Notes under the pieces: model-generated
What the model saw: the letters and a program-made list of their open reading frames with translations, nothing else
Databases searched by the model: none
What the model was told of the DNA's origin: nothing
Source of the DNA: Heterodontus francisci
Taxonomy: Eukaryota
NCBI RefSeq assembly: GCF_036365525.1
Contig: NC_090384.1
Coordinates: 34,047,966-34,111,965 of the forward strand
Length of the DNA stretch: 64,000 bases
Direction: 5' to 3'
Program-made: the position numbers and the translations under genes
Shown here: positions 18,020-64,000 of the stretch, in pieces
Numbering within the stretch: the first letter of the stretch is position 1
How the letters are laid out: each line of letters begins with the position of its first letter

Positions 18020-19070
18020 TAATTTGCATGGGATGTGGATGTTACTGGCTAGGACATCAATTGCTGCTCATCCCTAATTGCCCTTGAGAAGGTAGGGGTG
18101 AGATGCCTTCTTGAACCACTGCAATCCATCTGGCGCAGGTACGCCCACAGTGATGTCAGGGAGGGAGTTCCAGGAGTGTGATCTAGCGACAGTGAAGGAA
18201 CGGTGATATATTTCCAAGTCATCAAGTGTATGGCTTGCAGGGGAACTTGCAGATGATGGTGTTTCCACACATCTGCTGCCCTTGTCCTTCTAGGTGGAAG
18301 AGGTTGCAGGTTTAGAAGGTGCTGTCAAAGGAAGCGTGGTGAGTTTCTGCAGTGCATCTTATATACAGTACACACTGCTGCCACTGTGTGTCGGTGGTGG
18401 AGTGAGTGAATGTTTAATATGGTGGATGGATTGCCAATCAAGTGGGCTGCTTTAACCTGGATGGCGTTGAGATTCCTGAGTGTTGTTGGAGCTGCATCCA
18501 TCCAGGCAAGTGCAGAGTATTCCATCACACTCCTAACTTGTGCCTTGTAGATGGTAGACAGGCACTGGGGAGACAGAAGGTGAGTTACTTACTGCACAAT
18601 TCCCAGCCTCTGACCTGCTCTTGTAGCCACAGCATTTACGTGGCTGGCCCAGTTCAGTTTCTGGTCATTGGTGACCCCAGGATGTTGATAGTGGGGGAAT
18701 TCAGCAATGGTAATGCCATTGAACATCCCCACTTCTGACCTTATGATGGACAGAAGGTCATTGATGAAGCAGCTGAAGATGGTCGGGCCGAGGACACTAC
18801 CCTGAGAAACTCCTGCGGTGATGTCCTGGGGATGAGATGATTGGCCTCCGACAACTATAACCATCTTCCTTTGTTTCTAGGTATAACTCCAACCGGTGGA
18901 GAGGTTTCTGCCTGATTCCCATTGACTTCAATTTGGTTAGGGTTCCTTGATACCACACTCGGTCAGATGCTGTATTGATATCAAGGGCATTCACTCTCAC
19001 CTCACCTCTTGAATTCAGCTTTTTTGTCCATGTTTGGACCAAGGTTGTTATGAGGTCAGCAGCGAGTGGC
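18020..19070 (-). mobile_element. CR1-superclade LINE, family B, 5'-truncated
   Basis: GEVRVNALDINTASDRVWYQG, AGVSQGSVLGPTIFSCFINDL, MEYSALAW; family-B tail gcccttgagaaggt. Confidence 0.9.
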
Positions 19071-24302: not shown

Positions 24303-24425
24303 GTCACAGACCTGAAACATTAACTCTGCTTCTCTCTCCACAGATGCTGCCAGACCTGCTGAGTATTTCCAGCACTTTCTCTTTTTATTTCAGATTTCCA
24401 GCATCCGCAGTATTTTGCTTTTATA
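24303..24425 (+). mobile_element. Single arm of the Penelope-like fold-back element (ribozyme core truncated)
   Basis: gtcacagacctgaaacattaactctgcttctctctccacagatgctgccagacctgctgag...gcagtattttgcttttat, matching 54255-54375. Confidence 0.85.
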
Positions 24426-29261: not shown

Positions 29262-29716
29262 AATATTTAATGGACTAAACCCTTCCTGTTTATGCCACTA
29301 AATAAAATTACAATGGATCAGATCCCAGCCTATTCACTACCTTTGTGTAAAATTCCAGTAAATCAAATCCCATCCTATTTGAAACCTTGTGTGAAATTCC
29401 AGTAGATCAAATCCCATCTCATTCACTACCTTTGTGTGGAATTCCAGAAGATCAAATCCCATCCCATTCATTATCTTCGTGTGAAATTCCAGCAGGTCAA
29501 ATCACATCCCATTCATTACCTTTGTGTGGAATTCCAGCAGGTCAAATCCCATACTATTCAGTGCCAATTTGTCGCATTCCAATGGATAAAACAACCTTCT
29601 TACTCACTCCCATTGTATAAAATTCCATTGAATCAAATCATATCAAATTCGATCTCAATGGCTAGAATTTTGATGGATTAAACCTTTCTCATTCACTCCC
29701 ATTGGGAGAATTTCAG
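29262..29716. repeat. ~45-bp minisatellite, about 10 copies
   Basis: Unit approx. AATTCCAGTAGATCAAATCCCATCCCATTCACTACCTTTGTGTGG; best-matching copies 29351-29575, decaying outwards. Confidence 0.88.
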
Positions 29717-30139: not shown

Positions 30140-31270
30140 TTTTTTTTATTCATTCTTGGGATATGAGCATCACTGGTAAGGCCAGCATTTATTGCCCATC
30201 CCTAATTGCCCTTGGAAGGTGGTGGTGAGCTGCCTTCTGGAACTGCTGCAGTCCTTGTGGTGTTGGTATACCCACAGTGCTGTTAGGGAGGGAGTTCGAG
30301 GTCTTTGACCTAGTGACAGTGAAGGAACGGTAATTTATTCCCAAGTCAGGATGCTATGTGACTTGGAGGGGAACTTGCAATTGGTGGTGTTCTCATCTGT
30401 CTGCTCCCCTTGTCCTTCTAGGGGTAGAGGTCGTGGGTGGCTTGGCATGTTGCTGCACTGCATCGTGTACATGGTACACACTGCTGCCACCGTGAGCCGG
30501 TGATGGAGGGAGTGAATGTTTAAGGTGATGGATGGGGTGCCAATCAAGCTGGCTGCTTTGTCATGGATGATGTCCAGCTTCTTGAGTGATGTTGGAGCTG
30601 CACTCATCCAGCCAAGTGGAGAGTATTTCTCTTGGCTATGCCTTGCCGATGGTGGACAGGCTTTGGGGAGTCAGTAGGTGAGTTACTCACAGCAGAATTC
30701 CCAGCCTCTGACCTGTTCTTGCGGCCATACTATGTATATGGTTGGTCCAGTTAAGTTTCTGATCAATGGTAACCCCCCCAGGATGTTGATGGTGGGGGAT
30801 TTAGCGATGGTAATGCTGCTGAATGTCAAGGGGTGATGGGTAGATTCTCTCATATTGGAGATGGTCATTGCTTGGCACTTGCATGGTGCGAATGTTACTT
30901 GCCACTTATCAGCCCAAGCCTGAATGTTTCCCAGGTCTTGCTGCATGCGGGCACAGACTGCTTCAGTATCTGAGGAGTTGTGAATGGTACTGGACACTGC
31001 ACAATCATCAATGAACATCCCCACTCTGTTAGAGGGAAGATTGATGAAGCAGCTGAAGATGGTAGGACTTAGGAAACTTCCCTAAGGAACTCCTGTAACC
31101 ATGTCTTGGGGCTGAGATGATTGACCTCCAACAACCACAACCATCTTCCTTTGTGCTAGGTATGACTCCAAGCAGCAGAGAGTTTTCCGCCTGATTCCCA
31201 CTAACTTCAATTTTGCTATAGTCCTGGGTGCCACGCTCGGTCAAATGCTGCCTTGATGTCAAGGGACATG
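30140..31270 (-). mobile_element. CR1-superclade LINE, family B
   Basis: MFIDDC, MQQDLGNIQAWADKWQVTFAPCKCQAM, SAAPTSLKKLDIIHDKAA; family-B tail. Confidence 0.9.
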
Positions 31271-34567: not shown

Positions 34568-34690
34568 AAATGCTGGAAATTACTCAGAAGGTCAGGCAGC
34601 ATCTGCATAGGAAGGAGAATAGATAATGTTTCAGGTAGAATTTTCTATTTCTGATTCCGATTTCCAGCATCTGCAGTATTTTATTTTATG
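34568..34690. mobile_element. Decayed Penelope-like fold-back element
   Basis: aaatgctggaaattactcagaaggtcaggcagcatctg...tttccagcatctgcagtatttt. Confidence 0.65.
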
Positions 34691-40739: not shown

Positions 40740-43025
40740 CACACGGTTGATTCCTGGGATGAGAGGGTTGTCCTATGAGGAGAGATTGAGAAGAACGGGA
40801 CTTTATTCTCTGGACGTTAGAACACTGAGAACTACTTCATTGAAAAATAAAATTCTTAGAGGGCTTGACAGGATAGATGATGACAGTTTGTTTCCCCTGG
40901 CTGGAGAGTCTAAACTCAGACTTATAGCCCCAGAATTTTTTTTTAAAATTTCGTTCATGGGATGTGAACATCACTGGCAAGGCCCACCACCAAGGTGGTG
41001 GTGAGCTGCCTTCTTTAACCACTGCAGTCCCTGTGGTGTAAGTACACCAACAGTGCTGTTAGGAAGGCAATTTCAGGTTTTTAACCCACAGTGAAGGAAT
41101 GCCAATATATTTCCAGGTCAGGATGGTGTGTGACTTGGAGGGGAATTTGCAGGTGATGGTGCTCTCATGCGTCTGCTGCCCTTGTCCTTCTAAGTGGTAG
41201 AGGTGGTGGGTTTGGAAGGTGCTGTCGAAGGAGGCTTGGCAAGTTGCTGCAGTGCATCTTGTAGATGGTACACACTGCTACCACTGTGCACCTGTGGTAA
41301 AGGGAGTGAATGCTTAAAGTGGTGGATGGGTTGCCGATCAGGTGGGCTGCTTTGTTCTGGATGGTGTGAAGCTTCTTGAGTGGTGTTGCAGCTGCACCCA
41401 TCCATCCAGGCAAGTGGAGAGTATTACATCACACTCCTGACTTGTGCTTTGCTGATGGTGGACAGGTTTTGGCGAGTCAGGAGGTGAGTTACTCACTGCA
41501 GAATTCCCAGCCTTTGATCTATTCTTGTAGCCACACTATTTAGATATTGGTCCAGTTAAGTTTCTGATCAATGGTAACCCCAGGGATATTGATAGTGGGA
41601 TATTCAGCAATGGTAATGCTGTTGAACATCAAGGGGAGATGGTTAGATTCTCTCTTGTTGGAGATGGTCATTGCCTTGCACTTGTGTGGCGTGAACGTTA
41701 CTTGCTACTTATCAACCCAAGCCTGAATGTTGTCCGGGTTTTGCTGCCTATGGGCACAGACTACTTCAGTATCTGCAGAATTACAAATGGAAGTGGACGT
41801 TGCTCAATCATCAGTGAACATCTCCACCTCTGACCTTATGATGGAGGGAAGGTCATTGATGAAGCATCTGAAGATGGTTGAGCCTAGAACACTACCTTGA
41901 GGAACTGCAGTGATGTCCTAGGACTGAGATGATTCGTCTCCAACAACCACAACCATCTTCCTTTGTGCTAGGTATGACTCCAACCAATGAAAAGTTTTCC
42001 GCCAGATTACCATTGACTTCAATTTTGCTTGGGCTCCTTGGTGCCACACGAGGTCAAATGCTGCCTTGATGTCAAAGGCAGTAACTCTCACCTCACCTCT
42101 TGAATTCAGCTCTTTTGTCCATGTTTGGACCAAGGCTGTAATGAGGTCTGGAGCCGGGTGGCCCTGGAAGAACCCAAACTGAGCATCGGTGAGTAGGTTA
42201 CTGCTGAGTAAGTGCTGCTTGGTATCACTTTCAACGACATCTTCCACCACTGCTGATGATCGAGAGTAGACTGATGGGGCGGTAATTGACGATTGGATTT
42301 GTCCTGGTTTTTGTAGACAGGACACACCTGGACAATTTTCCACATTGTTGTGCAGATGCCAGTGGTGTAGCTGTACTGGAACAGCTTGGCTATAGGTGCG
42401 CAGCTAGTTCTGGAGTACAAGTCTTCAGTACTACAGACGGGATGTTGTCAGGGCCCATAGCCTTTTCTGTATCCAGTGTCTTCAGCCGTTTCTTGATACT
42501 ACGTGGAGTGAATTGAGTTAATTGAAGACTGGCATCTGTGATGATCAGGACCTTAGGAGTAGGCCGAGATGGATCATCCACTCTGCACTTCTGGCTGAAG
42601 ATGGTCGCAAATGCTTCAGCCTTGAACTAGGGTTGATTCCCTTGGTTTGATGGTAATGGTACCATGAGCGATATGCGGGCCTTCAGGTTAAAGATTGTGG
42701 GTGAATACAATTCTGCTACTGCTGATAGCCTACAGCTTGGATGTCCAATTTAGGCGATGTCCAGTCCCAGATAAGGGGTTGGCCATTCAAAACTGAGTTG
42801 AGACTCAGAGGATTAAGAATCTTTGGAATTCTCCACTCTGGAGGGCTTTGGCTGCTCAGTTGAGAAGTATATTCAAAACTAAGATTTAGGTTTTAGGACA
42901 CAAAGGGAATCAAGGGATATGGTATGGTAGGAAAAATGGAGTTAAGGTAGAAGATCAGCCAAGTTTTTATGGAATGTTGGAGCAGGCTGGAGGGGCCAAA
43001 TGGCCTATTTCTTATATTCCTATGT
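40740..43025 (+). mobile_element. CR1 LINE 3' fragment (40740-40925 and 42770-43025), interrupted by a family-B LINE
   Basis: TRLIPGMRGLSYEERLRRTGLYSL; resumes at agataaggggttggccattc... and ends gcctatttcttatattcctatgt. Confidence 0.75.
40940..42740 (-). mobile_element. CR1-superclade LINE, family B
   Basis: KAMGPDNIPSVVLKTC, AQFGFFQGHPAPDLITALVQTW, AFDIKAAFDLVWHQG. Confidence 0.92.
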
Positions 43026-44207: not shown

Positions 44208-45405
44208 TCTTTTGGGCCTCCTTATCTCGAGAGACAATGGATACGCGCCTGGAGGTGGTCAGTGGTTTGTGAAGCAGCGCCTGGAGTGGCTAAAAAGGCC
44301 AATTCTAGAGTGACAGGCTCTTCCACAGGTGCTGCAGAGAAATTTGTTTGTCGGGGCTGTTGCACAGTTGGCTCTCCCCTTGCGCCTCTGTCTTTTTTCC
44401 TGCCAACTACTAAGTCTCTTCGACTCGCCACATTTTAGCCCTGTCTTTATGGCTGCCCGCCAGCTCTGGTGAACGCTGGCAACTGACTCCCACGACTTGT
44501 GATCAATGTCACAGGATTTCATGTCGCGTTTGCAGACGTCTTTAAAGCGGAGACATGGACGGCCGGTGGGTCTGATACCAGTGGCGAGCTCACTGTACAA
44601 TGTGTCTTTGGGGATCCTGCCATCTTCCATGCGGCTCACATGGCCAAACCATCTCAAGTGCCGCTGACTCAGTAGTGTGTACAAGCTGGGGATGTTGGCC
44701 GCCTCGAGGACTTCTGTGTTGGAGATACGGTCCTGCCACCTGATGCCAAGTATTCTCCGGATGCAGCGAAGATGGAATGAATTGAGACGTTGCTCTTGGC
44801 TGGCATACGTTGTCCAGGCCTCGCTGCCATAGAGCAAGGTACTGAGGACACAGGCCTGATACACTCGGACTTTTGTGTTCCGTGTCAGTGCGCCATTTTC
44901 CCACACTCTCTTGGCCAGTCTGGACATAGCAGTGGAAGCCTTACCCATGCGCTTGTTGATTTCTGCATCTAGAGACAGGTTACTGGTGATAGTTGAGCCT
45001 AGGTAGGTGAACTCTTGAACCACTTCCAGAGCGTGGTCGCCAATATTGATGGATGGAGCATTACTGACGTCCTGCCCCATGATGTTCGTTTTCTTGAGGC
45101 TGATGGTTAGGCCAAATTCATTGCAGGCAGCCGCAAACCTGTCGATGAGACTCTGCAGACACTCTTCAGTGTGAGATGTTAAAGCAGCATCGTCAGCAAA
45201 GAGGAGTTCCCTGATGAGGACTTTCCGTACTTTGGACTTTGCTCTTAGACGGGCAAGGTTGAACAACCTGCCCCCTGATCTTGTGTGGAGGAAAATTCCT
45301 TCTTCAGAGGACTTGAACGCATGTGAGAGCAGCAGGGAGAAGAAAATCCCAAACAGTGTGGGTGCGAGAACACAGCCCTGTTTCACGCCACTCAGGATAG
45401 GAAAG
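44208..45405 (-). mobile_element. Young 5'-truncated RTE-clade LINE with an uninterrupted RT C-terminal frame
   Basis: GVKQGCVLAPTLF, RELLFADDAAL, FTYLGS, C-terminal CSTCGRACHSRIGLFSH zinc finger; 11-bp TSD ggtagttgcat at 44197-44207 and 45406-45416. Confidence 0.96.
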
Positions 45406-45714
45406 GGTAGTTGCATAATACAATGAAAATGGAGTTGTTGATTAGTCAGAACACACAACCTCTATCAATTAACCAACAACATATCCAGACAGATCCAGTG
45501 GTGGGGAGCTTTAGGAACCATAGATCCAAAGTCACCCGTTTCTTGCAAACAGGCTACAATTACCACATATCTCAAATTATTCAGATACTGTATCCCAAGA
45601 TGTTTTCTAAAACACATTACAGCCACTCGTTGATTCAGAGCCAAACTGAGGTTGCTGCAGCCACAAGGCAGAGCAGTAATCACTGTACCATCAGTACACT
45701 CCACGGAGAGAAAC

Positions 45715-46700
45715 ACCTTTTCCTGATATATATTAATGACTTCGACCTTGGTGTACAGGGCACAATTTCAAAGTTTGCAGATGATATGAAACTTGGAAGC
45801 ATTGTGAACTGTGAGGAGGATAGTGTAGAACTTCAAAAGGACATAGACAAGTTGGTGGAATCGGCAGACAGGTGGCAGATGAAGATCAATGCAGAAAAAT
45901 GTGAAGTGATTCATTTGGTAGGAAGAACATGGAGAGACAATATAGAATAAAGGGTACAATTCTAAAGGGGGTGCAGGAGCAGAGGGACCCAGGTGTATAA
46001 GTGCATAAGTCATTGAAGGTGGCAGGACAGGTTGAGAGAGTGTTTAAAAAAGCATGCAGTATCCTGGGCTTTATTAATAGGGGCATAGAATACAAGAGAA
46101 AGGAAGTTATGCTGAACTTGTATAAGACACTAGTTCAGCCTCAGCTGGAGCATTGCGTCCAATTCTGGGCGCTGGACTTAAGGAAAGACGTGAGGGCATT
46201 GGAGAGAGTACAGAAAAGATTCACGAGAATGGTTCCAGGGATGAGGAATTTCAGTTATGAAGATAGACTGGAAAAGTTAGGACTGTTTTCCTTGGAGAAG
46301 AGAAGGCTGAGAAATGATTTGATAGAGGTATTCAAAATCATGAGGGGTCTGGACAGAGTAGATAGAGACAACCTGTTCCCACTCGTAAAAGGATCGAGAA
46401 TGAGAGGGCACAGATTTAAAGTATTTGGTAAGAGAAGCAAAAGTGACATGTGGAAAAACTTTTTCACGCAGTGAGTGGTTAAGGTCTGGAATGCACTGCC
46501 TGAGAACATGGTGGAGGCAGGTTCAAATGAAGTATTCAAAAGGGAATTAGACAGTTATATGAAAAGGAAGAATGTGCAGAGTTAAGGGGAGAAGGCAGGG
46601 GAATAGAACTGAGGGAGTTGCTCTTTGAGAGAGCCGGTGCAGACACGATGGGCTGAATAGCCTCCTTCTGCGCTGTAGCGATTCTGTGATTCTGTGATTA
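45715..46700 (+). mobile_element. CR1 LINE (family A), 5'-truncated
   Basis: LFLIYINDF, ISKFADDMKLG, LVQPQLEHCVQFW; (attctgtg)n tail. Confidence 0.93.
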
Positions 46701-47232: not shown

Positions 47233-49122
47233 TTTGGTGATTTACATCCTGTTGCCCAGGCTACAATTGCAGTGCAGATCAATTGTTTATCTTGCTTTCC
47301 AAAAAGAGAAACAAAGAGAAATTGTTGGGAGATGAGCCTTCACAACATGACTGGAAAGGCTATATAAAGGCTATAATAGGACCATCGTGATAAAGTAAGT
47401 ATTCTGTGAGGAGCTAGTTTCTTCTTTTAATGTTTCCTCTGTTCCTTCTTTTTGATTTCTTCATGACACATACTAGCAGGAGCATCAAGGGCAGGTGGAC
47501 AGGCTCCACCAATGCTGCTCTGACCTGGCTACCAAGAAGACCAAGACAGTAGCACAGGAATGACTCCTCTTCTGATCTTCCTCCTGGCCACAACTCAATG
47601 TCCTTGTGGCCTCCATCTCAGTGAGCTAGTCGGGGTTTGAACCTGCACCTCTGTGATGCTGTGCAGTGATGTTCCAATGCATTATGTTAACATGTCACTC
47701 ACCCCATTATGAGGACCCATCTTTGTTGAAAACTACTTTGCTGTCCTTTGAAAACTGAAGATGTAGAATTTATGAAAATGCACCCATGAGGACAATCCAT
47801 AATTATCATTTCTAAGGGACCCTCATCTTTCCAATTATGTTGAGATTCTGATGCACTGTTGAGCCAACAGAATCCTTCAGGTTGATCCTGGAGGCTATCT
47901 GAAACTGTCAATCATTAAACAGCTCAACAACAGAGTTAGAGAATTACTAGATTGCAGCTTTGGACTGGCATCCAAGAATATGGCAAAGATTTTGCCCACC
48001 CCGAAATGCTGGGTCTTCACCAATGTGCAGTACAGAGGAGAATTAATTAATTATTTCAATACATTGCTGAGTTAGAAACAGTATTGAAATTTCTATCATC
48101 AAAAAAGGTAAAACAGATGAATAAATTAAACCATGAGATTAGGGGAGTAACAGTGGGCTGGGATATGACAATCTCCGTGTTCTTAGGAGAATGGCATTTC
48201 ATCAACAAGGAAGGGGGCGGGGGGACAGGGGGAGCGGAAGATCTGAACCCAAGAGTGTGCTACTCAGACTTTGGGAATTCACTAAGGAGCTCCACATTTG
48301 TTGCACAGTTTAGTGCGGCCTTTCTTTGGGTAATATATCATTCTCCATGAAGTGTGCACTTTGAACAAATGCCAGGTGGAGAAATGATCCTGAAAACTCT
48401 CCAGAGACTCAACCTGGCCTGTCTTTGGTCTGCATTAAACTCCCATTCACATTCCATTTACTTAACAGTGTGTTTATCCTGGAATGTCGGGAAATAGAAA
48501 ATAACTCATAGTGACAGCAGGAATACACAGATTATTCAGGGACAGTGAGAAGTCTGTGATTAATAATCCTTCCTTAGGGGAATTACTGAAACAAACCATA
48601 TATCGCTGCTGGGGTGTAGTGAGCTATTTGGTTGATATGTAATACAGATACTGAGGAAATTCTGGCCTTATTCAAACATGGCAGCTTGCTCATTTCATTT
48701 TTGTATTTAATATGGTGGAATAACATTATAGGTCTGGTGAAAAAACTTAAGTACCTATACTATGCCCATATTGTAACACCAATACCATACACTTATATCC
48801 TGTACCCATATTCTAAAACCCCAAATTGTATTGAATACCTATATACATGCATGCTGTACAAAATAGAATGAAGGGGCTGAGATGACTGATGGTGATTCCG
48901 CTAATAGTGGAGTGCTGGGAAGGACGAGGCCAGAATCAAAAGAGGATGTAAGTTGATGTAAGTTTTAGAAGTGGGATACGATGAAACTATGGCGAGCTTA
49001 ATAATGGAGAGCTTAATAAATAAAGAAGAAGATTTTGAAATCAGTAGGGAGGGAGCCAGTTGTTGAGATAAACAAATGCTAGGAAAAAAATCAGAAATTA
49101 AATGCACAAAAAAAAGAGTTTG

Positions 49123-49210
49123 AAATAAAAACAGAAAGTGCTGGAAATACTCAGCATCTGTGGAGAGTGAAGCAGAGTTAACGTTTCAGATCTGTGACCT
49201 TTCATCAGAA
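49123..49210 (-). mobile_element. Penelope-like fold-back element arm with hammerhead core
   Basis: Minus strand reads CTGATGA-A-AGGTC-ACA-GATCT-GAAAC-GTT-AACTCT. Confidence 0.75.
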
Positions 49211-52260: not shown

Positions 52261-52591
52261 ATAAAACTTTACAACCATGAGGACTTCTGCTTTCAGTTCT
52301 ATTCTGAGATGGTTCTGTTGCCTCTACTTCAATGTGTCATCTATTCAAGCTATGGCCTCTGCTTCTACTTTTATGTCTGTCGGGGCAAATACTGTGAGAT
52401 CTCCCTCTTGCACTATTGCAGGCTCTTTCTCGAGTTCATGATTGTTTTCTGACATAAGAGTCACTTACGCACTCACTATCAGTACTTGTATTGAGCTTTA
52501 TTACTTTCCACTCTTTCATCTCATTCTGCCAGTCCATGGACCTCGCTTCTCGGCCATCATCCTGAACATTCAACCAATACTTAAACTTGCC

Positions 52592-52778
52592 AAAATAAAA
52601 GCAAAATACTGCGGATGCTGGAAATCTGAAATAGAAACAAGAAACGCTTGAAGTACTCAGCAGGTCTGGCAGCATCTGTGGAGAGTTCTGAAGAAGGGTC
52701 ACTGACCTGAAACGTTAACTCTGTTTCTCTCTCCACAGGTGCTGCCAGACCTGCTGAGTATTTCCAACGTTTCTTGTT
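52592..52778. mobile_element. Penelope-like fold-back element inserted in Copia, 11-bp TSD
   Basis: TSD ttaaacttgcc at 52581-52591 and 52779-52789; imperfect inverted arms. Confidence 0.9.
52682..52722 (+). ncRNA. Putative minimal type I hammerhead ribozyme
   Basis: AGAGUU-CUGAAGA-A-GGGUC(acu)GACCU-GAAAC-GUU^-AACUCU: stem I 6 bp, stem II, loopless palindromic stem III (ACGU), as in PLE minimal hammerheads. Confidence 0.6.
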
Positions 52779-53126
52779 TTAAACTTGCCCGTAGTTTTTC
52801 CTACATGTTGCACAATTGTCACATCCCTCCATTCACTAGACCCCTCTAGAATATATGTCACCTGAGAACACACTCTGAGCAATTGGCCTGTGGATGTGAC
52901 AGCTCTGTCATGTGTGTCTTGATCACTCACATTACCACTATCCAGCCCTTGATCTACCATATTCTGTTCCTCAGGACCCTCATCATAAAACACATGAGCA
53001 TTTGAGGTACAAGGTGCCTCGTTTACTTCTATCAGCTGCTCAGAGTCTGAGATTTTGCAATTTATTTTGATCAATAATGAGGAATGAACCTTAACAGTTT
53101 GATTGTCATGTTTGATAAGAACTGTC

Positions 53127-53429: not shown

Positions 53430-55000
53430 CATCATGACCTATTACCTTACCAGGGCCTTTTCATTCCCTAAGACCCTCTCTTTTATAATACACCAAATCT
53501 CCTGATTTCAATTCTGTCTTGGATGGTCAGATACAATGCCTCAGTGCTCTCTGAGTTTTCTCCAAGACCTCAGCCTTGATAAAGATAAATCATTCAAATC
53601 TGCAGAAAAATGGCACTAATTGTAGTACCTTCTAAAGCAGGAAGACTATCACACAGCACAGAAGGCAATTTGGGATTTTGCCCATAGACTAATTGTATCC
53701 TCCAATCATCTGGAGAACATTCTTTGAATAAACCATCCAGGCCAGGCTGTTGTCAACTTGCAGGCTGGTTGATCAGCGAAAATTTTATGAACCATTTCTT
53801 TGATCACAGCATGATTCCTTTCACAGAGTCCATTGCTGAAAGGACTTTCAGCTGCAGTATCGATGACCGTGATGTTCATATAGTCACACGTTTCTGAACA
53901 CATCATTGGAAATTTGCCTCCATTATTCGTCAAAAACTTTGCTGGTGCCCCAAGACTGGTCCCTTTCCATTTCTCCATGATTTTATCTATAATAACCCTT
54001 TTATCTGAACTAAGTATTATCGTAGAAATCTGGTTGCCAGGTCGACAAATGTAGAATGAGAATATTTCTGTCTTTGTCCCAAATCTTTAGATCCATAGTA
54101 ATTATCTTGTTAAATTCATGTGCCAATGGAAGGCTTACAATAGAACATGAAATGCTGGATTCACTCAGCAGGTCTGGCAGCATCTGTGGAAAGAGAAGCA
54201 GAGTTAACGTTTCGGGTCAGTGACCCTTCTTCGGAACAAGAGTTCCGAAGAAGGGTCACTGACCCGAAACGTTAACTCTGCTTCTCTTTCCACAGATGCT
54301 GCCAGACCTGCTGAGTGAATCCAGCATTTCTTGTTTTTGTTTCAGATTTCCAGCATCCGCAGTATTTTGCTTTTATTACAATAGAACATGCCAGCTTCCT
54401 CTGACACATTTTACAGATTTCACACTTCTCACTAATCTCTTCTATTTGCCTCGTGCACTCCTCAACAACCACACCTGCATCCTTTAGCAGGATTTTAAAC
54501 CTCTGACAAGTAGAGAGCAAACTGTCTATGTAACCTTAAAGAGAATTTGATTTTTTTTCTCTTATCACCTGATGCCATGAATATTTGTCGAATACTCTGA
54601 TCAGAAACAACAGATTTTGTTAAGGGGATACAATAATGTCAATACTGTAAACTGCAGATCCACTGACTTTCCAAAAATAATTGCTTTATCATGCTCCTTG
54701 TCAAGTTTCATTTGTTCCTTTTTCATAGAAGGTTTGTCCAACAGCATAGGTATCTCACTACAGATTACATCAGTACTTATAAAATGGTTTACTCCTGCTA
54801 TTTTACATGGAATTACAACTCTCTTTAGTGATCTCAATGAATTGTCATCACCAAACCTAAAGCAAGTAGTACTTTTATATTCCTTAACCTTACATCAATT
54901 CCTCACTACTTAGTGAATCAAGATAACATTTTAACCAACCTGTTCCACATACTGTTGAAGTGCAAGCGCTATCAAACACTGCACAATTAAAGGAGTCCGC
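53430..55000 (-). pseudogene. Copia protease and integrase, disrupted
   Basis: FNCAVFDSACTSTVCGTGW (~54935-54991), IPMLLDKPSMKK, RLHRQF, KILLKDAG...CEICK, TAAESPFSNGLCERNHAV. Confidence 0.88.
54150..54375. mobile_element. Penelope-like fold-back element: perfect 89-bp inverted arms, 15-bp TSD
   Basis: Arms 54149-54237 and 54242-54330 are exact reverse complements around a 4-nt loop aaga; TSD ttacaatagaacatg at 54135-54149 and 54376-54390. Confidence 0.95.
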
Positions 55001-56020: not shown

Positions 56021-57660
56021 GGTACACTCACAGTACAGTTAGGAGGGGAGTTCCAGGATTTTGACCTAGTGATAATGAAGGTACGGCAATATATTGCCAA
56101 GTCAGGATGGTGTATGACTTGGAGGGGAATTTGCAGTTGACAGTGTTCCCATGTGCCTGATGCCCTTGTTCTTCTAGACAGTAGAGGTCACAGGTTTGGA
56201 AGGTGCTGTCAAAGGAGCCTTGGCGAGTTGCTGCAGTGCATCTTGTAGATGATACACGCTGCAGCCACTGTGTGCTGGTGGTGGAGGAGATCATTGTTTA
56301 AGGTGGTGGATGGGCTGCCAGTCAAGCAGTTTGCCTTGCCCTGAATAGTATCGAGCATCTTGAGTGTTGTTGGAGATGCACTCATCTAGACAAGTGGGGA
56401 GAATTCCCTCACACTCCTAACTTGTGTCTTGTAAATAATGGACAGGCTTTGGGGAGTCAGAAGGTGAGTTACCGCAGAATTCACAACCACTGTTCTGTTT
56501 TTGCAGCCACAGTATTTATGTGGTTGGTCCAGTTAAGTTTCTGGTCAATGGTGACCCCTAGGATGTTGATAATGGATAATTCAGCAATGATATGTCATTG
56601 AATGTCAAGGGGAGGTGGTTAGATTGTCTCTTGTTGGACATGGTCATTGCCTGGCACTTGTGTGGTGTGAATGTTACTTGCCACCTATCAGCCCAAGCCT
56701 GAATGTTGTCCAAGTCATGCTGCATGCGAACACAGACTGCTTCATATCGGAAGAGTTAAGAATGGAACTGTAACTGCAATCATCAGCAAACATCCCCACT
56801 TCATACCTTAAAATGGAGGGAAGGTCATTGATGAAGCATCCGAAGATGGTTGGGCCTAGGGCACTACCCTGAGGAACTCTGACAATGATGTTCTGGGGCT
56901 GAGATAATTGGCCTTCAACAATCATAGTCATCTTCCTTTGGGCTAGGTATGATTCCAGTCAGAGGAGATTTTTCTCCTGATTCCCATTCACTTCAATTTT
57001 ACTGGGCTCCTTATGCTCCACTGGGTCAAATGTTGTCTTGATGTCAAGGGGAGTTGCTTTCATCTCACCTCTGGAATTCAGCTCTTCTTTGTTCATCTTT
57101 GGACCAAGGCAGTAATGAGGTTTGGAGCCCAGTAGTCCTGGCGGAACCCAAACTGAGCATCAGTGAGCAGGTTGTTGCTGAGTAAGTGCCACTTGATAAA
57201 ACTATCGATGACACCTTCCATCACTTTGCTGATGATCGAGAGTAAACGGATGGAGTGGTAATGGGCTGGATTGGATTTATCCTGCTTTTTGTGGACAGAA
57301 CATACTTGGGCACTTGTCCACATTGTCGGGTCGATACCAGTATTGTAGCTGTACTGGAACAACTTGGCTAGGGACGAGGATAGTTCTTGAGCAGTAGTCT
57401 TTAGTACTACTGCCAGGATGTTGTCAGGACCCACAGCCTTTGCTGTGTCCAGTTCCTTCAGCCGTTTCTTGATATCATGTGGAATATTGAGTTGGCTGCA
57501 GACTGGCACCTGTGAACTGGCAACATCAGGAGGAGGCCGAGATGTATCATCCACTCGGCTCTTCTGGCTGAAGATGGATGCAAATGTTTCAGCCTTGTCT
57601 TTTGTACTGATGTGCTGGGCTCCCCCATCATTGAGGATGGGGGTGCTTGTGGAGCCTTCG
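56021..57660 (-). mobile_element. CR1-superclade LINE, family B (host of Copia)
   Basis: VPQGSALGPTIFGCFINDLP...MFADDC; KAVGPDNILAVVLKT; AQFGFRQ. Confidence 0.92.
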
Positions 57661-60450: not shown

Positions 60451-60454
60451 TTCT

Positions 60455-61820
60455 TGAAAATTCTAGAGTCCATTATAAAAGATTTTATAGCAGAGCACTT
60501 GGAGAACAGTGGTAGAATCGGACAGAGTCAGCATGGATTTACGAAAGGGAAATCATGCTTGACAAATCTACTAGAATTCATTGAGAATGTAACGAGTAGA
60601 GTTGATGAGGGGGAGCCAATAGATGTGGTTTATTTAGACTTTCAGAAGGCTTTCGACAAAGTCCTACGTAAGAGATTAGCGTGTAAAATTAAAGCGCAAG
60701 GGATTGGGGTTAGTGTATTGCAATGGATAGAAAATTGGTTGGCAGACAGGAAACAAAGAGTAGGAATAAATGAGTCTTTTTCCAAATGGCAGGCATTGAC
60801 TAGTGGGGTACCGCAGGGATTGGTGCTAGGACCCCAGATATTCACAATATATATTAATGATTTAGATGAGGGAACTAAATGTAATATCTCCAAATTTGCA
60901 GATGACACAAAACTGGGTGGGAGGGTGAGTTGTGAAGAGGATGCAGAGAGGCTTCAGGGTGATTTGGACAAGTTGAGTGAGTGAGCAAATGCATGGCAGA
61001 TGCAGTATAATGTGGATAAATGTGAGGTTATTTGGTAGCAAAAACAGGAAGGCAGATTATTATCTGAATGGCTGTAAACTGACAGCGGGGAATATGCAAC
61101 GAGACCTGGGTGTTCTCGTACACCAGTCGCTGAAGGTAAGCATGCAGGTCCAACAGGCGGTAAAAAAGGCAAATGGTATGTTGGCCTTCATAGTGAGAGG
61201 ATTCGAGTACAGGCGTTGGGATGTCTTGCTGCAATTATACAGGGCCTTGGTGAGGTCGCACCTGGAATATTGTGTGCAGTTTTGGTCTCCTTATCTGAAG
61301 AAGGATGTTTTTACTATAGAGGGAGTGCAGTGAAGGTTTACCAGACTGATACCTGGGATGGCGGGACTGACATATGAGGAGAGATTGAGTCGGTTAGGAT
61401 TATATTCGCTGGAGTTCAAAAGAGTGAGGGGGCTGTCATAGAAACCTTTAAAATTCTGACAGGACTTGACAGGGTAGATGCAGGAAGGATGTTCGTGATG
61501 GTGGGGAAGTCCAGAACCAGGGGTCATAGTGTAAGAATACGGGGTAAACCTTTCAGGACTGAGATGAGGAGAAATTACTTCATCCAGAGAGTGGTGAGCC
61601 TGTGGATTTCGCTACCACAGAAAGCAGTTGAGGCCAAAACATTGTATGTTTTCAAGAAGGAGTTTGATATAGTTCTTGGGGCAAAAGGGATCAAAGGATA
61701 TGGGGAGAAAGCGGGAACAGGTTACTGAATTGGATGATCAGCCATGATCATAATGAATGGTGGAGCATGCTCAAAGGGCCGAATGGCCTACTCCTGCTCC
61801 TATTTTCTATGTTTCTATGT
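60455..61820 (+). mobile_element. CR1 (HER1-like) LINE nested in an opposite-strand CR1
   Basis: QHGFTKGKSCLTNLLEF, VYLDFQKAFDKV, SGVPQGLVLGP, SKFADDTKLGG; (tttctatg)n tail. Confidence 0.95.
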
Positions 61821-61821
61821 T

Positions 61822-64000
61822 TGACCTTTCTGCCAATGGGAACAATTTCTTTCTATCTACTCTCTGTCTGGATCCCTCATGATTTTGAACACCTCGATCA
61901 AATCTCCTCTGAACCTTTTGTTCTCGAAGCAAAACCACCCCAGCTCCACCAACCTATTCTCGTAACTGAAGCTCCTCACCCCTGGAACCATTCTCGTACA
62001 TCTTTTCTGCACCCTCGCTAAAGCCTTCACATCCTTTCTAAAATGCAGTGTCCAGAATTGGACACAATACTTCAGCTGAGACCGAATCAGTGTTTTATAA
62101 AGGTTCACCATAACATCCTTGCTTTTGTTCTCTACGCCTCTATTAATACAGCCCAGGATCCCATATGCTTTTGTCACCACTTTTTCAACCTGCCCTGCCA
62201 ACTTCAACAATTTGTGCTCATATACCACCAGGTTTCTCTGTTCCTGCACCCCATTTAGTATTGTACCCTTTATTTTATATTGTCTCTCCTCATTCTTCCA
62301 ACCAAAATGTATCACTTAGCACTTCTCTGCATTATATTTCATCTGTCACATGTCTGCCCATTTCACCAGCCTGTCTACGTCCTCTTGAAGTCTATCATTA
62401 TCCTTCTCATATTCCACTATCCTTCTAAGTTTTGTGCCATCTGAAAATTTTGAAATTGTGACCTGTGTACCCAAGTCTTAGTCATTAATATATCAAGAAA
62501 AGCAGTGGTCCTAGTACTAACCCCTGGGGAACACTAATGTATACCTTCCTTCAGTCCGAAAAACAACTGCTGACCACAACTCTCTGTTTCCTGTCACTCA
62601 GCTACTTCGTATCCATGCTGCCAGTGCCCCTTTATTCCATGGGCTTCAAGTTTGCTGGCAAGCCTCAAGCCTATTATATGGCATTTTATCAAAAGCATTT
62701 GAAAGTCCTTATACACCACATCAACCCTCTCTGTTATCCCATCAAAAAGCTCAATCCAGTTAGTTAAACAAAAATTGCCTTTAACAAATCTGTGCTGGCT
62801 TTCCTTAATTAATTAACATTTGTCCATGTGACTGTTAAATTTGTCCCAGATTATCGTATCTCAAAGCTTTCCCAGTGTTGAGGTTACACTGACTGGCTTG
62901 TAGTTGCTGGGTTTATTCTTACACCGTTTTTTGAACAAGGGTGTAACATTTGCATTTCACCAGTCCCATATCTAAGGAGGATTAGAAGATTATGGCAAGC
63001 ATCTCCACAATTTCCACCCTTACTTCCCTCAGCATTCTCGGATGCATCTTATCCAGTTCTGGTGACTTAACAACTTTAAGTACAGCTAATCTTTCTAATA
63101 CTTCCTCTTTATCAATTTTTAGCCCATCCAGTATTTCAACTACCTCCTTTTTCACTATGACTTTGACAACATCTTCTTCCTTGGAAAGACAGCTGCAAAG
63201 TATTCATTTAGTTCCTCAGCCATGCTTTCTGCCTCTATATGTAAGTCTTTTTTGCTCCTTAATCAGACCCTAATCTTGCTACCCTTTCACTATTTATATA
63301 TCAATAGAAGACTTTTGGATTCTTTTTCATGTTAGTTGCCAGTCTCTTCTCATATTCTCTCTTTGCTTCTCTTATTCCCTTTTTCACTTCCCCACTAAAT
63401 TTTCTATGTTCAGTCTGGTTCTCACTTGTATTATCAACCTGACATCTGTCGTACCCCCTTATCTGCTTCATCTTACTGTCGTTCCCTTTCGTCATCCCGG
63501 GAGCTCTGGCTTTGCTTGGCCTACCTTTCCCCCTCGCAGGAATGCACCTTGACTGTACCATCTCCTGTTCAAAGGCAGCCCATTGGTCGATTATAGATTC
63601 GCCTGCCAATCTTTGGTTCCAAATTACCCAGGACAGATCTGTTCTCATCCCACTGAAATTGTCCCTCCATCAATTAAATATTTTACTCTAGATTGCTCCT
63701 TGTCTTTTTCCATATCTAATCTAAACCTTATGATACTATTATCACTGTTCCTTAAATGTTCCCCTATAGACACTTGGTCCATTTGAATCACCTCATTCTC
63801 CAGAATCAGATCCAGCAATGCCTCCTTCCTCATTGGGCCAGAAACATACTGATCAAGAAAATTCTCCTGAATTCACTTCAGAAACTCTTCCCCATCTCTA
63901 CCTTTTAGACGATTATTGGATAATTGAAGTCCCCATTATCACTACTCTATAGTTTTTTCACCTCTCTGTAATTTCCCTGCAAATTTACTCTTCTTTCTCT
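61822..64000 (-). mobile_element. CR1 LINE (family A), degenerate ORF2 running off the window end
   Basis: LIRSQLKYCVQFW; EAKREYEKRLATNMKKNPKVFY; endonuclease end EALLDLILEN...EHLRNSDNSIIRF. Confidence 0.93.

What the first reader, a model, noticed from the sequence alone, without database searches (positions are those of the whole stretch)
52581..52789. Short TSD-flanked fold-back element carrying an intact minimal hammerhead ribozyme motif
Seen: a 187-bp non-coding insert with an 11-bp TSD. Its centre reads AGAGUU-CUGAAGA-A-GGGUC-acu-GACCU-GAAAC-GUU-AACUCU: both hammerhead core boxes, stems I and II, and a loopless palindromic stem III, with predicted cleavage after 52716. Related arms occur at 24303, 34568, 49123 (CUGAUGA core, different stem II) and 54150. 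Established: Penelope-like elements carry minimal hammerheads in their pLTRs that cleave as dimers, and they often insert with an inverted terminal repeat. Inference: a dense family of tiny, protein-free, ribozyme-bearing retroelements (PLE-derived, retrozyme-like). Caveat: there is an extra A between the core and stem II.
Basis: partly seen in the sequence, partly recalled or inferred. Interest (0 to 1): 0.7.

Follow-up and report, generated by a model that had tools for sequence, protein, structure and literature searches.

The report
Fold-back stub of a Penelope retrotransposon
This 187-base hairpin is one of very many short, mirror-image leftovers of an ordinary Penelope-type jumping gene whose end repeat carries a known small hammerhead motif; it is not a separate ribozyme element, though the ends of such copies likely record where the element's RNA starts and how both cut DNA strands get copied.

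Summary
In detail: a 187-bp insert, an 11-bp target-site duplication and a minimal hammerhead motif at the stated places. The reading as a separate retrozyme-like family fails. The insert is two head-to-head pieces of the 3' end repeat (pLTR) of a Neptune-type Penelope-like element (PLE). Intact 916-aa RT + GIY-YIG copies with the same repeat lie in this genome. In 1.2 Mb of unselected DNA, 85 insertions form a size continuum, and none of 21 fold-backs has this copy's junction. The extra A is a published PLE-hammerhead hallmark; native stem I is 4 bp, not 6. Mechanistic clues: 17 of 17 intact fold-backs have the tail on one arm only. Arm 5' ends pile up at the hammerhead's first base (25 of 93), not at its cut (5 of 93, chance level). 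The two arms of long fold-backs are near-identical. This fits priming from both cut strands on uncut RNA that begins at that base (inferred). Inverted copies, the one-sided tail and the hammerhead are published. The scan noted the same before, in this genome and in at least 22 genomes. Cleavage is untested.

The parts
52581..52591 (+). Left target-site duplication, 11 bp (TTAAACTTGCC)
52592..52685 (-). Left arm: reverse complement of PLE nt +46 to +139 (+1 = A of AGTT), ending in the roughly 36-nt 'tail' (about 52592-52630); carries no hammerhead core
   Evidence: aligned to the 3,296-bp unit of an intact copy
52684..52778 (+). Right arm: PLE nt +1 to +95, tail-less; shares 2 bases (AG, 52684-85) with the left arm at the junction
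   Evidence: 91-98% identical to the best genome matches, among them L008, L019 and L024, which run on upstream into ORF sequence
52684..52720 (+). Minimal type I hammerhead motif: stem I 52684-87/52717-20, CUGAAGA 52688-94, extra A 52695, stem II 52696-700/52704-08, GAAAC-GUU 52709-16, predicted cut after 52716; helix III only possible between two molecules (ACGU palindrome)
   Evidence: definition in PMC4209133; activity not tested
52779..52789 (+). Right target-site duplication, 11 bp
54135..54390 (.). Second, younger fold-back of the same PLE (insert 54150-54375, 15-bp TSD); left arm tail-less, right arm tailed and 100% identical to the intact unit; CCGAAGA core on both arms
24303..24424 (+). 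Solo tailed stub, nt +15 to +136; lacks the first core box
34568..34689 (.). Decayed fold-back (tail-less arm plus tailed arm), no hammerhead core, no TSD found
49121..49210 (-). Older solo tail-less stub with CUGAUGA core and AGGUC/GAUCU stem II; 5' strand of stem I damaged

Best explanation
The insert is two short pieces of the 3' end repeat of a Neptune-type Penelope-like retrotransposon joined head to head between target-site duplications, likely written in one event in which both nicked DNA strands primed reverse transcription on the element's uncut RNA. Shown: the arms are nt +46..+139 and +1..+95 of a 3,296-bp unit that encodes RT and a GIY-YIG endonuclease; the hammerhead motif occupies +1..+37 of that unit, 173 nt before the ATG of the next unit. 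Inferred: the endonuclease makes a staggered cut 11-15 bp apart; one strand primes at the tail end (+136), the other about 36 nt upstream (+100), matching the two internal RT start sites shown in vitro for an anole PLE; the tail-less cDNA ran to the RNA's 5' end, likely a transcription start at +1, the tailed one stopped at +46, and the two were joined through a 2-base microhomology. The hammerhead is a passenger in this copy: it lacks the upstream promoter-like sequence, its two arms differ at 4 of 50 shared bases, and stem I is predicted not to form in the hairpin.
For: Parent element: L036 holds pLTR-ORF-pLTR fused to an inverted copy. By hand count, 108 of 149 scored hits lie in 924-residue stop-free frames. 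L138 encodes 916 aa with RVT_1 (E 1e-5) and GIY-YIG (E 0.002), both below Pfam's curated cut-offs, and a C-x4-C-x2-C linker. One-sided tail: 17 of 17 fold-backs with two intact 3' ends, 5 of 5 in the hold-out sample; p about 7e-6 if the arms were independent. The same holds in 7 of 7 long inverted loci. The tail-less arm reaches further 5' in 13 of 17, the tailed one in 3, with 1 tie, so neither arm is always a copy of the other. The arms of 7 long fold-backs differ by 0-1.7 substitutions/kb, against medians of 4.9-10.4/kb to other loci. 5' ends: 25 of 93 at -2..+3 (22 in the pre-stated -1..+3), 1 at -20..-3 and 5 at the cut +-2 (3.2 expected, p 0.21). The flanks upstream of these ends are unrelated to the pLTR, 2-13 of 30 identical. 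TTATAA or TTAAAA lies near -30 in 14 of 21 arms that run through +1, and the young family reads TCAGTT at +1 (Inr consensus recalled). Literature: two RT start sites, both strands cut and extended, hammerhead cleavage not needed for insertion (PMC11167929); inverted pLTR, one-sided tail, TATA/Inr in pLTR (PMC3846280; PMC8557442).
Against: No RNA 5' end was observed: the runs found were contigs only. The sequence before +1 also looks like a splice acceptor (CTAAY in 19 of 21, YAG in 20 of 21), and in Drosophila Penelope an intron ends at the 5' edge of helix I. The hold-out pile-up is small (5 of 28 at -1..+3). No excess of G at -1, as a copied cap might leave: 12 C, 4 G, 2 A, 1 T among the 19 of 27 arms that keep AG. 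Arm-to-arm identity could come from gene conversion or assembly polishing, and for L140, L145/6, L147/8 and L150 another locus is nearly as close. The long copies were chosen by a protein search, not at random. In vitro, the anole PLE showed no strand difference in start-site use, so the one-tail rule is not yet explained by that assay. BLAST ends are good to about +-3 bases.
Confidence: 0.8

Rival explanations
1. A separate non-autonomous, retrozyme- or SINE-like family of short hammerhead elements with its own master copies, moved by the PLE protein.
For: 59 of 85 unselected insertions are 260 bp or shorter, and solos often share both ends (+1 to +100 or +136). Animal retrozymes are reported to derive from pLTRs (bioRxiv 10.64898/2026.07.22.740005). 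Short copies in host transcripts could be re-copied now and then.
Against: None of 21 fold-backs shares this junction. Of the 29 other fetched best matches only L011 and L012 were fold-backs, with other junctions. No head-to-tail array of short units appeared among 85 insertions. Short copies carry the same subfamily variants as long ORF-bearing copies, and 54241-54376 is 100% identical to the intact unit. Short copies lack the upstream promoter-like sequence.
Confidence: 0.06
2. PLE insertion as above, but the inverted arm arises by self-priming: a strand folds back at a palindrome and copies itself, possibly on an antisense template (proposed in PMC3846280).
For: Explains near-identical arms. 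The hammerhead region is rich in short palindromes, and several junctions use them. Published proposal.
Against: A tail-primed first strand that folds back would make the tailed arm the longer one at the 5' side; in 13 of 17 fold-backs, and in this copy, the tail-less arm is longer. Both orders occur. An antisense-template version is not excluded by these data.
Confidence: 0.15
3. PLE insertion as above, but the edge at +1 marks a splice acceptor or an RT stall at the hammerhead rather than a transcription start.
For: Conserved CTAAY and YAG before +3. Intron end at helix I in Drosophila Penelope; there the start lies 46 bp before a 75-bp intron (PMC2377424).
Against: Of the 27 arms that start at -2..+4, 19 keep the AG and no shared exon precedes them; in several solos the TSD abuts directly. 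A stall should act on each pass, but only 1 of 16 long arms stops there.
Confidence: 0.25
4. The hammerhead cuts the RNA in vivo and the cut RNA is the main template of the short copies.
For: The motif is kept across subfamilies. 5 of 93 arms start within 2 bases of the cut. More-than-unit arms and 100%-identical tandem units fit the circular-template idea of PMC4209133.
Against: 5 of 93 is the background rate (3.2 expected, p 0.21). The finding's right arm spans the cut site, so its template was uncut. The intact young family has a C at core position 4.
Confidence: 0.08

Closest known systems
Complex insertions of endonuclease-positive Penelope-like elements (Pen2a_Av of Adineta vaga, PMC3846280; general scheme in PMC8557442; passages read)
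   Same: pLTR with an adjacent inverted, 5'-truncated copy; 30-40-bp tail at one end only; TSD; microhomology at the 5' junction; TATA- and Inr-like motifs in the pLTR; partial tandems.
   Different: Here both arms are cut down to under 100 bp and hold no ORF; TSDs are mostly 12-15 bp (26 of 30) against 8-10 bp in the rotifer examples; extrapolated copy number is about 4e5.
Minimal hammerheads of metazoan PLEs (Cervera and De la Pena 2014, PMC4209133; parts 1-2 of 4 read)
   Same: No helix III, palindromic 15.2-16.2, 4-bp helix I, extra nucleotide before stem II, mostly found as single motifs of truncated PLEs, sometimes two on opposite strands close together.
   Different: Stem II is 5 bp, shorter than the 7-8 bp given for Schistosoma; pair 10.1-11.1 is G-U in this copy (A-U and G-C in other subfamilies); the intact young subfamily has CCGAAGA. 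Sharks are not named in the parts read; supplements not seen.
PAc, Poseidon element of Anolis carolinensis (Frangieh et al. 2024, PMC11167929; parts 1-2 of 4 read)
   Same: Two internal RT start sites bounding the tail, downstream of the hammerhead; both target strands cut and extended; AT-rich targets (TSDs here 66% AT against 56% background).
   Different: PAc is Poseidon clade and its ORF starts inside the hammerhead; here the ORF starts at +173, after the tail, and has the Neptune-type cysteine linker.
Animal non-LTR retrozymes (bioRxiv 10.64898/2026.07.22.740005; parts 1-3 of 5 read)
   Same: Non-coding, hammerhead-bearing, related to pLTRs; monomers scattered over chromosomes.
   Different: Defined there as head-to-tail tandem repeats with a hammerhead in each unit; this insert is head-to-head with one hammerhead and has no fixed unit.

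Membership tests
EN+ Penelope-like element | Single ORF with RT followed by GIY-YIG endonuclease, linked to this repeat | tested here: met
   916-aa ORF in L138; RVT_1 442-567, GIY-YIG 818-852, both under Pfam's cut-off but in order, with DKG, YIDD and CxxC motifs visible
EN+ Penelope-like element | pLTR formed by partial tandems; inverted 5'-truncated copy | tested here: met
   21 arms with a full unit preceded by a partial unit; 7 inverted loci among 17
EN+ Penelope-like element | 30-40-bp tail, often on one end only | tested here: met
   3' ends fall in two classes, 49 tailed and 44 short of 106 arms (13 other); 17 of 17 intact fold-backs discordant
Neptune clade | CX2-5CxxC linker between RT and EN (shared with Nematis) | tested here: met
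   FPCNRRRCNTC in L138; definition in PMC8557442
Neptune clade | RT phylogeny groups with Neptune rather than Nematis | not tested
   No reference sequences at hand; Neptune and Poseidon are the groups reported in vertebrates
PLE minimal hammerhead | CUGANGA and GAAA-UH boxes, helix I 4-5 bp, helix II, extra nt before stem II, palindromic 15.2-16.2 | tested here: met
PLE minimal hammerhead | Covariation across families | tested here: inconclusive
   Subfamily-level change is confined to core 4, core 7, loop II and one stem II pair, paired in 43 of 43 distinct rows (GU 19, AU 13, GC 11); covariation score reached by 4 of 500 shuffles; only that pair varies and relatedness is not controlled
PLE minimal hammerhead | Self-cleavage as a dimer | not testable with these tools
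   Nearest-neighbour energy of the double hammerhead (-8.5) is worse than two monomers (-11.8) and than a stem II cross-dimer (-20.8) for the 37-nt motif; the model omits core contacts
Non-LTR retrozyme | Head-to-tail tandem of short units, each with a hammerhead | tested here: not met
   This insert is head-to-head; no short tandem array among 85 insertions
Non-LTR retrozyme | Fixed-length non-autonomous unit with its own copies | tested here: not met
   0 of 21 fold-backs share the +46/+1 junction; lengths 140-3083 bp
Non-LTR retrozyme | Abundant circular RNA | not testable with these tools
   Only contig-level runs were offered

The most novel reading that the evidence does not exclude
PLE insertion is routinely two-ended: the two nicked target strands prime at the two ends of the tail on RNA from one donor, copying overlapping stretches. 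The capped transcript begins at the first base of the hammerhead, so monomeric RNA yields only 100-136-nt run-off stubs, hundreds of thousands of them here, while full-length progeny come from multi-unit or circular RNA. The hammerhead would then act on the RNA's 5' end (cap removal or unit release), not in making the stubs.
Probability: 0.4. Interest if true: 0.5.

Novelty: new member of a known kind. Interest (0 to 1): 0.2.

Why it matters
The insert itself is ordinary. The family is a large natural record of PLE integration: about 426,000 insertions and 105,000 fold-backs by extrapolation, with intact young parents. How PLEs make inverted copies and one-sided tails, and what their hammerhead does, are open questions in the papers read. 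The end statistics give three testable predictions: paired priming at two start sites, a transcription start at the hammerhead's first base, and uncut RNA as template of the short copies. Other agents of this scan noted the first two already; those notes are not independent support.

Tried and rejected
Rfam scan of the window: no hammerhead hit; a mir-3127 match at E 0.42 over the hairpin is below threshold and reflects the fold-back. PDB sequence search with the RT region: 0 matches at E<=1. The protein atlas gave no result. Sequencing runs: all contigs, RNA status mostly guessed, so no start, strand or level; pieces cover the pLTR and ORF 5' part but show nothing decisive; no contig showed an empty site at this insertion, which proves nothing. 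CpG decay as the source of CTG versus CCG in the core: rejected as the main cause, since positions 6 and 25 change together (18 of 19 C with C) and G7 or G26 to A is rare, 3 of 50 each. A 6-bp stem I: rejected as a junction accident. Cap-derived G at -1: no excess. The first Fisher test used a miscount (1 of 12); one search recounts it as 1 of 16. Fold-back counts in the first sample depend on the reference: 15 of 57 or 14 of 57. Alignment A1 used 51 of the 54 motif rows (two very divergent rows and the second arm of 54150 left out). Host gene context was not resolved: of 13 long frames in the window 4 hit RVT_1 and none a host protein family. Lunse et al. (RNA Biol, dimer cleavage of variants) and Pyatkov et al. 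2002 were not held, so whether the position-4 variant cleaves is unchecked. Literature searches for these readings (listings only unless cited) showed no paper on twin priming in PLEs or on shark PLE hammerheads; subscription journals, Repbase/Dfam and supplements were not searched.

Full report
Observation. The RNA folds as a long hairpin, z = -12.4. Numbering the A of AGTT (52684) as +1, the motif is stem I +1-4/+34-37, CUGAAGA +5-11, A +12, stem II +13-17/+21-25 and GAAAC-GUU +26-33, with the predicted cut after +33. Rfam does not detect it. A motif scan gave 14 hits in 1.2 Mb of unselected DNA, all of this family, and 0 in three shuffles. The extra A is a listed hallmark of PLE minimal hammerheads (PMC4209133, parts 1-2 of 4). 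Stem I is 4 bp in the family; the two further pairs come from the inverted arm.

What it belongs to. The window lies in a 6.0-Gb genome; its repeats look shark-like to me (recalled, not tested). Among the 30 best matches to the right arm, L008, L019, L024 and L029 continue 0.9 to over 1.5 kb upstream into coding-like DNA. Locus L036 holds pLTR-ORF-pLTR on one strand, fused to an inverted truncated copy. A search with its N-terminal frame scored 149 places, 108 of them (hand count) in 924-residue stop-free frames. In 17 such loci the unit is 3,296 bp, occurs as partial and full tandems, and is preceded by a variably truncated unit. The 916-aa protein has RT then GIY-YIG (both weak Pfam hits, below cut-off) and a C-x4-C-x2-C linker, the mark of the Neptune and Nematis clades (PMC8557442 passages). 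No tree was built. The ORF stop lies at -373 and the next ATG at +173. The finding's arms are +46..+139 (inverted, tailed) and +1..+95 (tail-less), overlapping by AG.

Is there a short family of its own? I took 24 blocks of 50 kb at round positions on large contigs: 16 first, then 8 as a hold-out after writing the tests down. They hold 85 insertions, 64 single and 21 inverted, which extrapolates to about 426,000 (331,000-531,000) and 105,000 (65,000-145,000). 59 of 85 are 260 bp or shorter and 23 reach upstream of -400. Fold-backs measure 140-3083 bp, and none of 21 has the finding's junction. TSDs of 10 bp or more were found in 15 of 21 fold-backs, 15 of 57 solos with an intact 3' end, and 5 of 150 random intervals. 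No head-to-tail array of short units was seen. So the insert is best read as one truncated product of the autonomous element, not a retrozyme.

3' ends. Of 106 arms, 49 end at the tail end (about +136), 44 about 36 nt earlier and 13 elsewhere (dropped). All 17 fold-backs with two classifiable ends have one of each (hold-out 5 of 5; 4 of 21 unclassifiable); p is about 7e-6 under independence. So do 7 of 7 long inverted loci; L155 is rearranged and was left out. A tail on one end only is published (PMC3846280; PMC8557442). The tail's two edges match two internal RT start sites shown in vitro, where both target strands are cut and extended (PMC11167929, parts 1-2 of 4). The tail-less arm runs further 5' in 13 of 17, the tailed in 3, with 1 tie; a tail-primed strand that folds back on itself predicts the reverse. 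The arms of long fold-backs differ by 0-1.7 substitutions/kb, while medians to other loci are 4.9-10.4/kb; the contrast with the nearest other locus is clear for L138, L141 and L142 and weak for the other four. Gene conversion or assembly polishing could also produce this. Inference: two cDNAs, one from each nicked strand, from RNA of one donor.

5' ends. Of 93 arms, 22 start at -1..+3 (the pre-stated window; hold-out 5 of 28), 25 at -2..+3, 1 at -20..-3, 21 at +4..+21 and 5 within 2 bases of the cut, where 3.2 are expected. Upstream flanks of the +1 arms are unrelated to the pLTR. A TATA-like word near -30 is present in 14 of 21 run-through arms, and TCAGTT spans +1 in the young family (consensus recalled; similar motifs noted in a rotifer pLTR). 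I read +1 as a transcription start (about 65%). Against: CTAAY (19 of 21) and YAG (20 of 21) also fit a splice acceptor, as in Drosophila Penelope, no G excess marks a cap, and no raw RNA reads were available.

The ribozyme. Across 50 unselected copies, variation above decay level is at core 4 (U 31, C 19), core 7 (A 28, U 20), loop II and the first stem II pair, plus decay of one CpG. That pair is standard in 43 of 43 distinct rows (GU 19, AU 13, GC 11); 4 of 500 shuffles reach the covariation score, but it is a single pair among related sequences. This fits selection on the parent elements and is thin as covariation. The intact young copies carry CCGAAGA; the paper on such variants was not held. 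In this copy stem I is predicted unpaired and the double-hammerhead is not the favoured dimer (the model omits core contacts). Published minimal hammerheads cleave weakly even as dimers, and PAc's needs its protein and is dispensable for insertion in vitro. Cleavage here is untested.

Verdict. A new member of a known kind: an inverted, 5'-truncated EN+ PLE insertion with the known pLTR hammerhead. I reached the one-tail and start-site readings before the look-ups (notes); the scan's earlier notes hold the same readings, in at least 22 genomes (251 findings) and in this genome (79). Two notes favour starts at the cut; my sample shows no excess there. Supplements of the cited papers were not read and may list shark motifs. 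Interest 0.2.

Noticed in passing
L143-L144 (G000:C2:92976779-92990128), L145-L146: Four full 3,296-bp PLE units in tandem, 100% identical to each other, and a three-unit array with an inverted arm: very young multi-unit insertions or collapsed assembly.
   Followed up: partly
L140, L141, L142, L147-L148: Giant palindromes in which both arms are longer than one PLE unit, each arm with an intact 924-residue frame.
   Followed up: partly
L136-L155; window 54150-54375: The intact, youngest subfamily has C instead of U at hammerhead core position 4, always together with a G-C first pair in stem II.
   Followed up: partly
L137:5175: A full-length copy that begins at +2 behind a 6-base filler and a 14-bp TSD, i.e. 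exactly one start-to-tail transcript without upstream promoter.
   Followed up: partly
window 29300-29613: Tandem array of about 45-bp units, six or more copies.
   Followed up: no
window 18088-19063, 30215-31217, 40991-42154, 56021-57004; 44259-46698; 60451-62493: Several LINE-like fragments with RVT_1 hits in four frames; no host exon found.
   Followed up: no
L064:3076-3323, window 54238-54241, L058:1102-1330: Some fold-back junctions carry 3-10 filler bases between two arms that both reach about +1.
   Followed up: no
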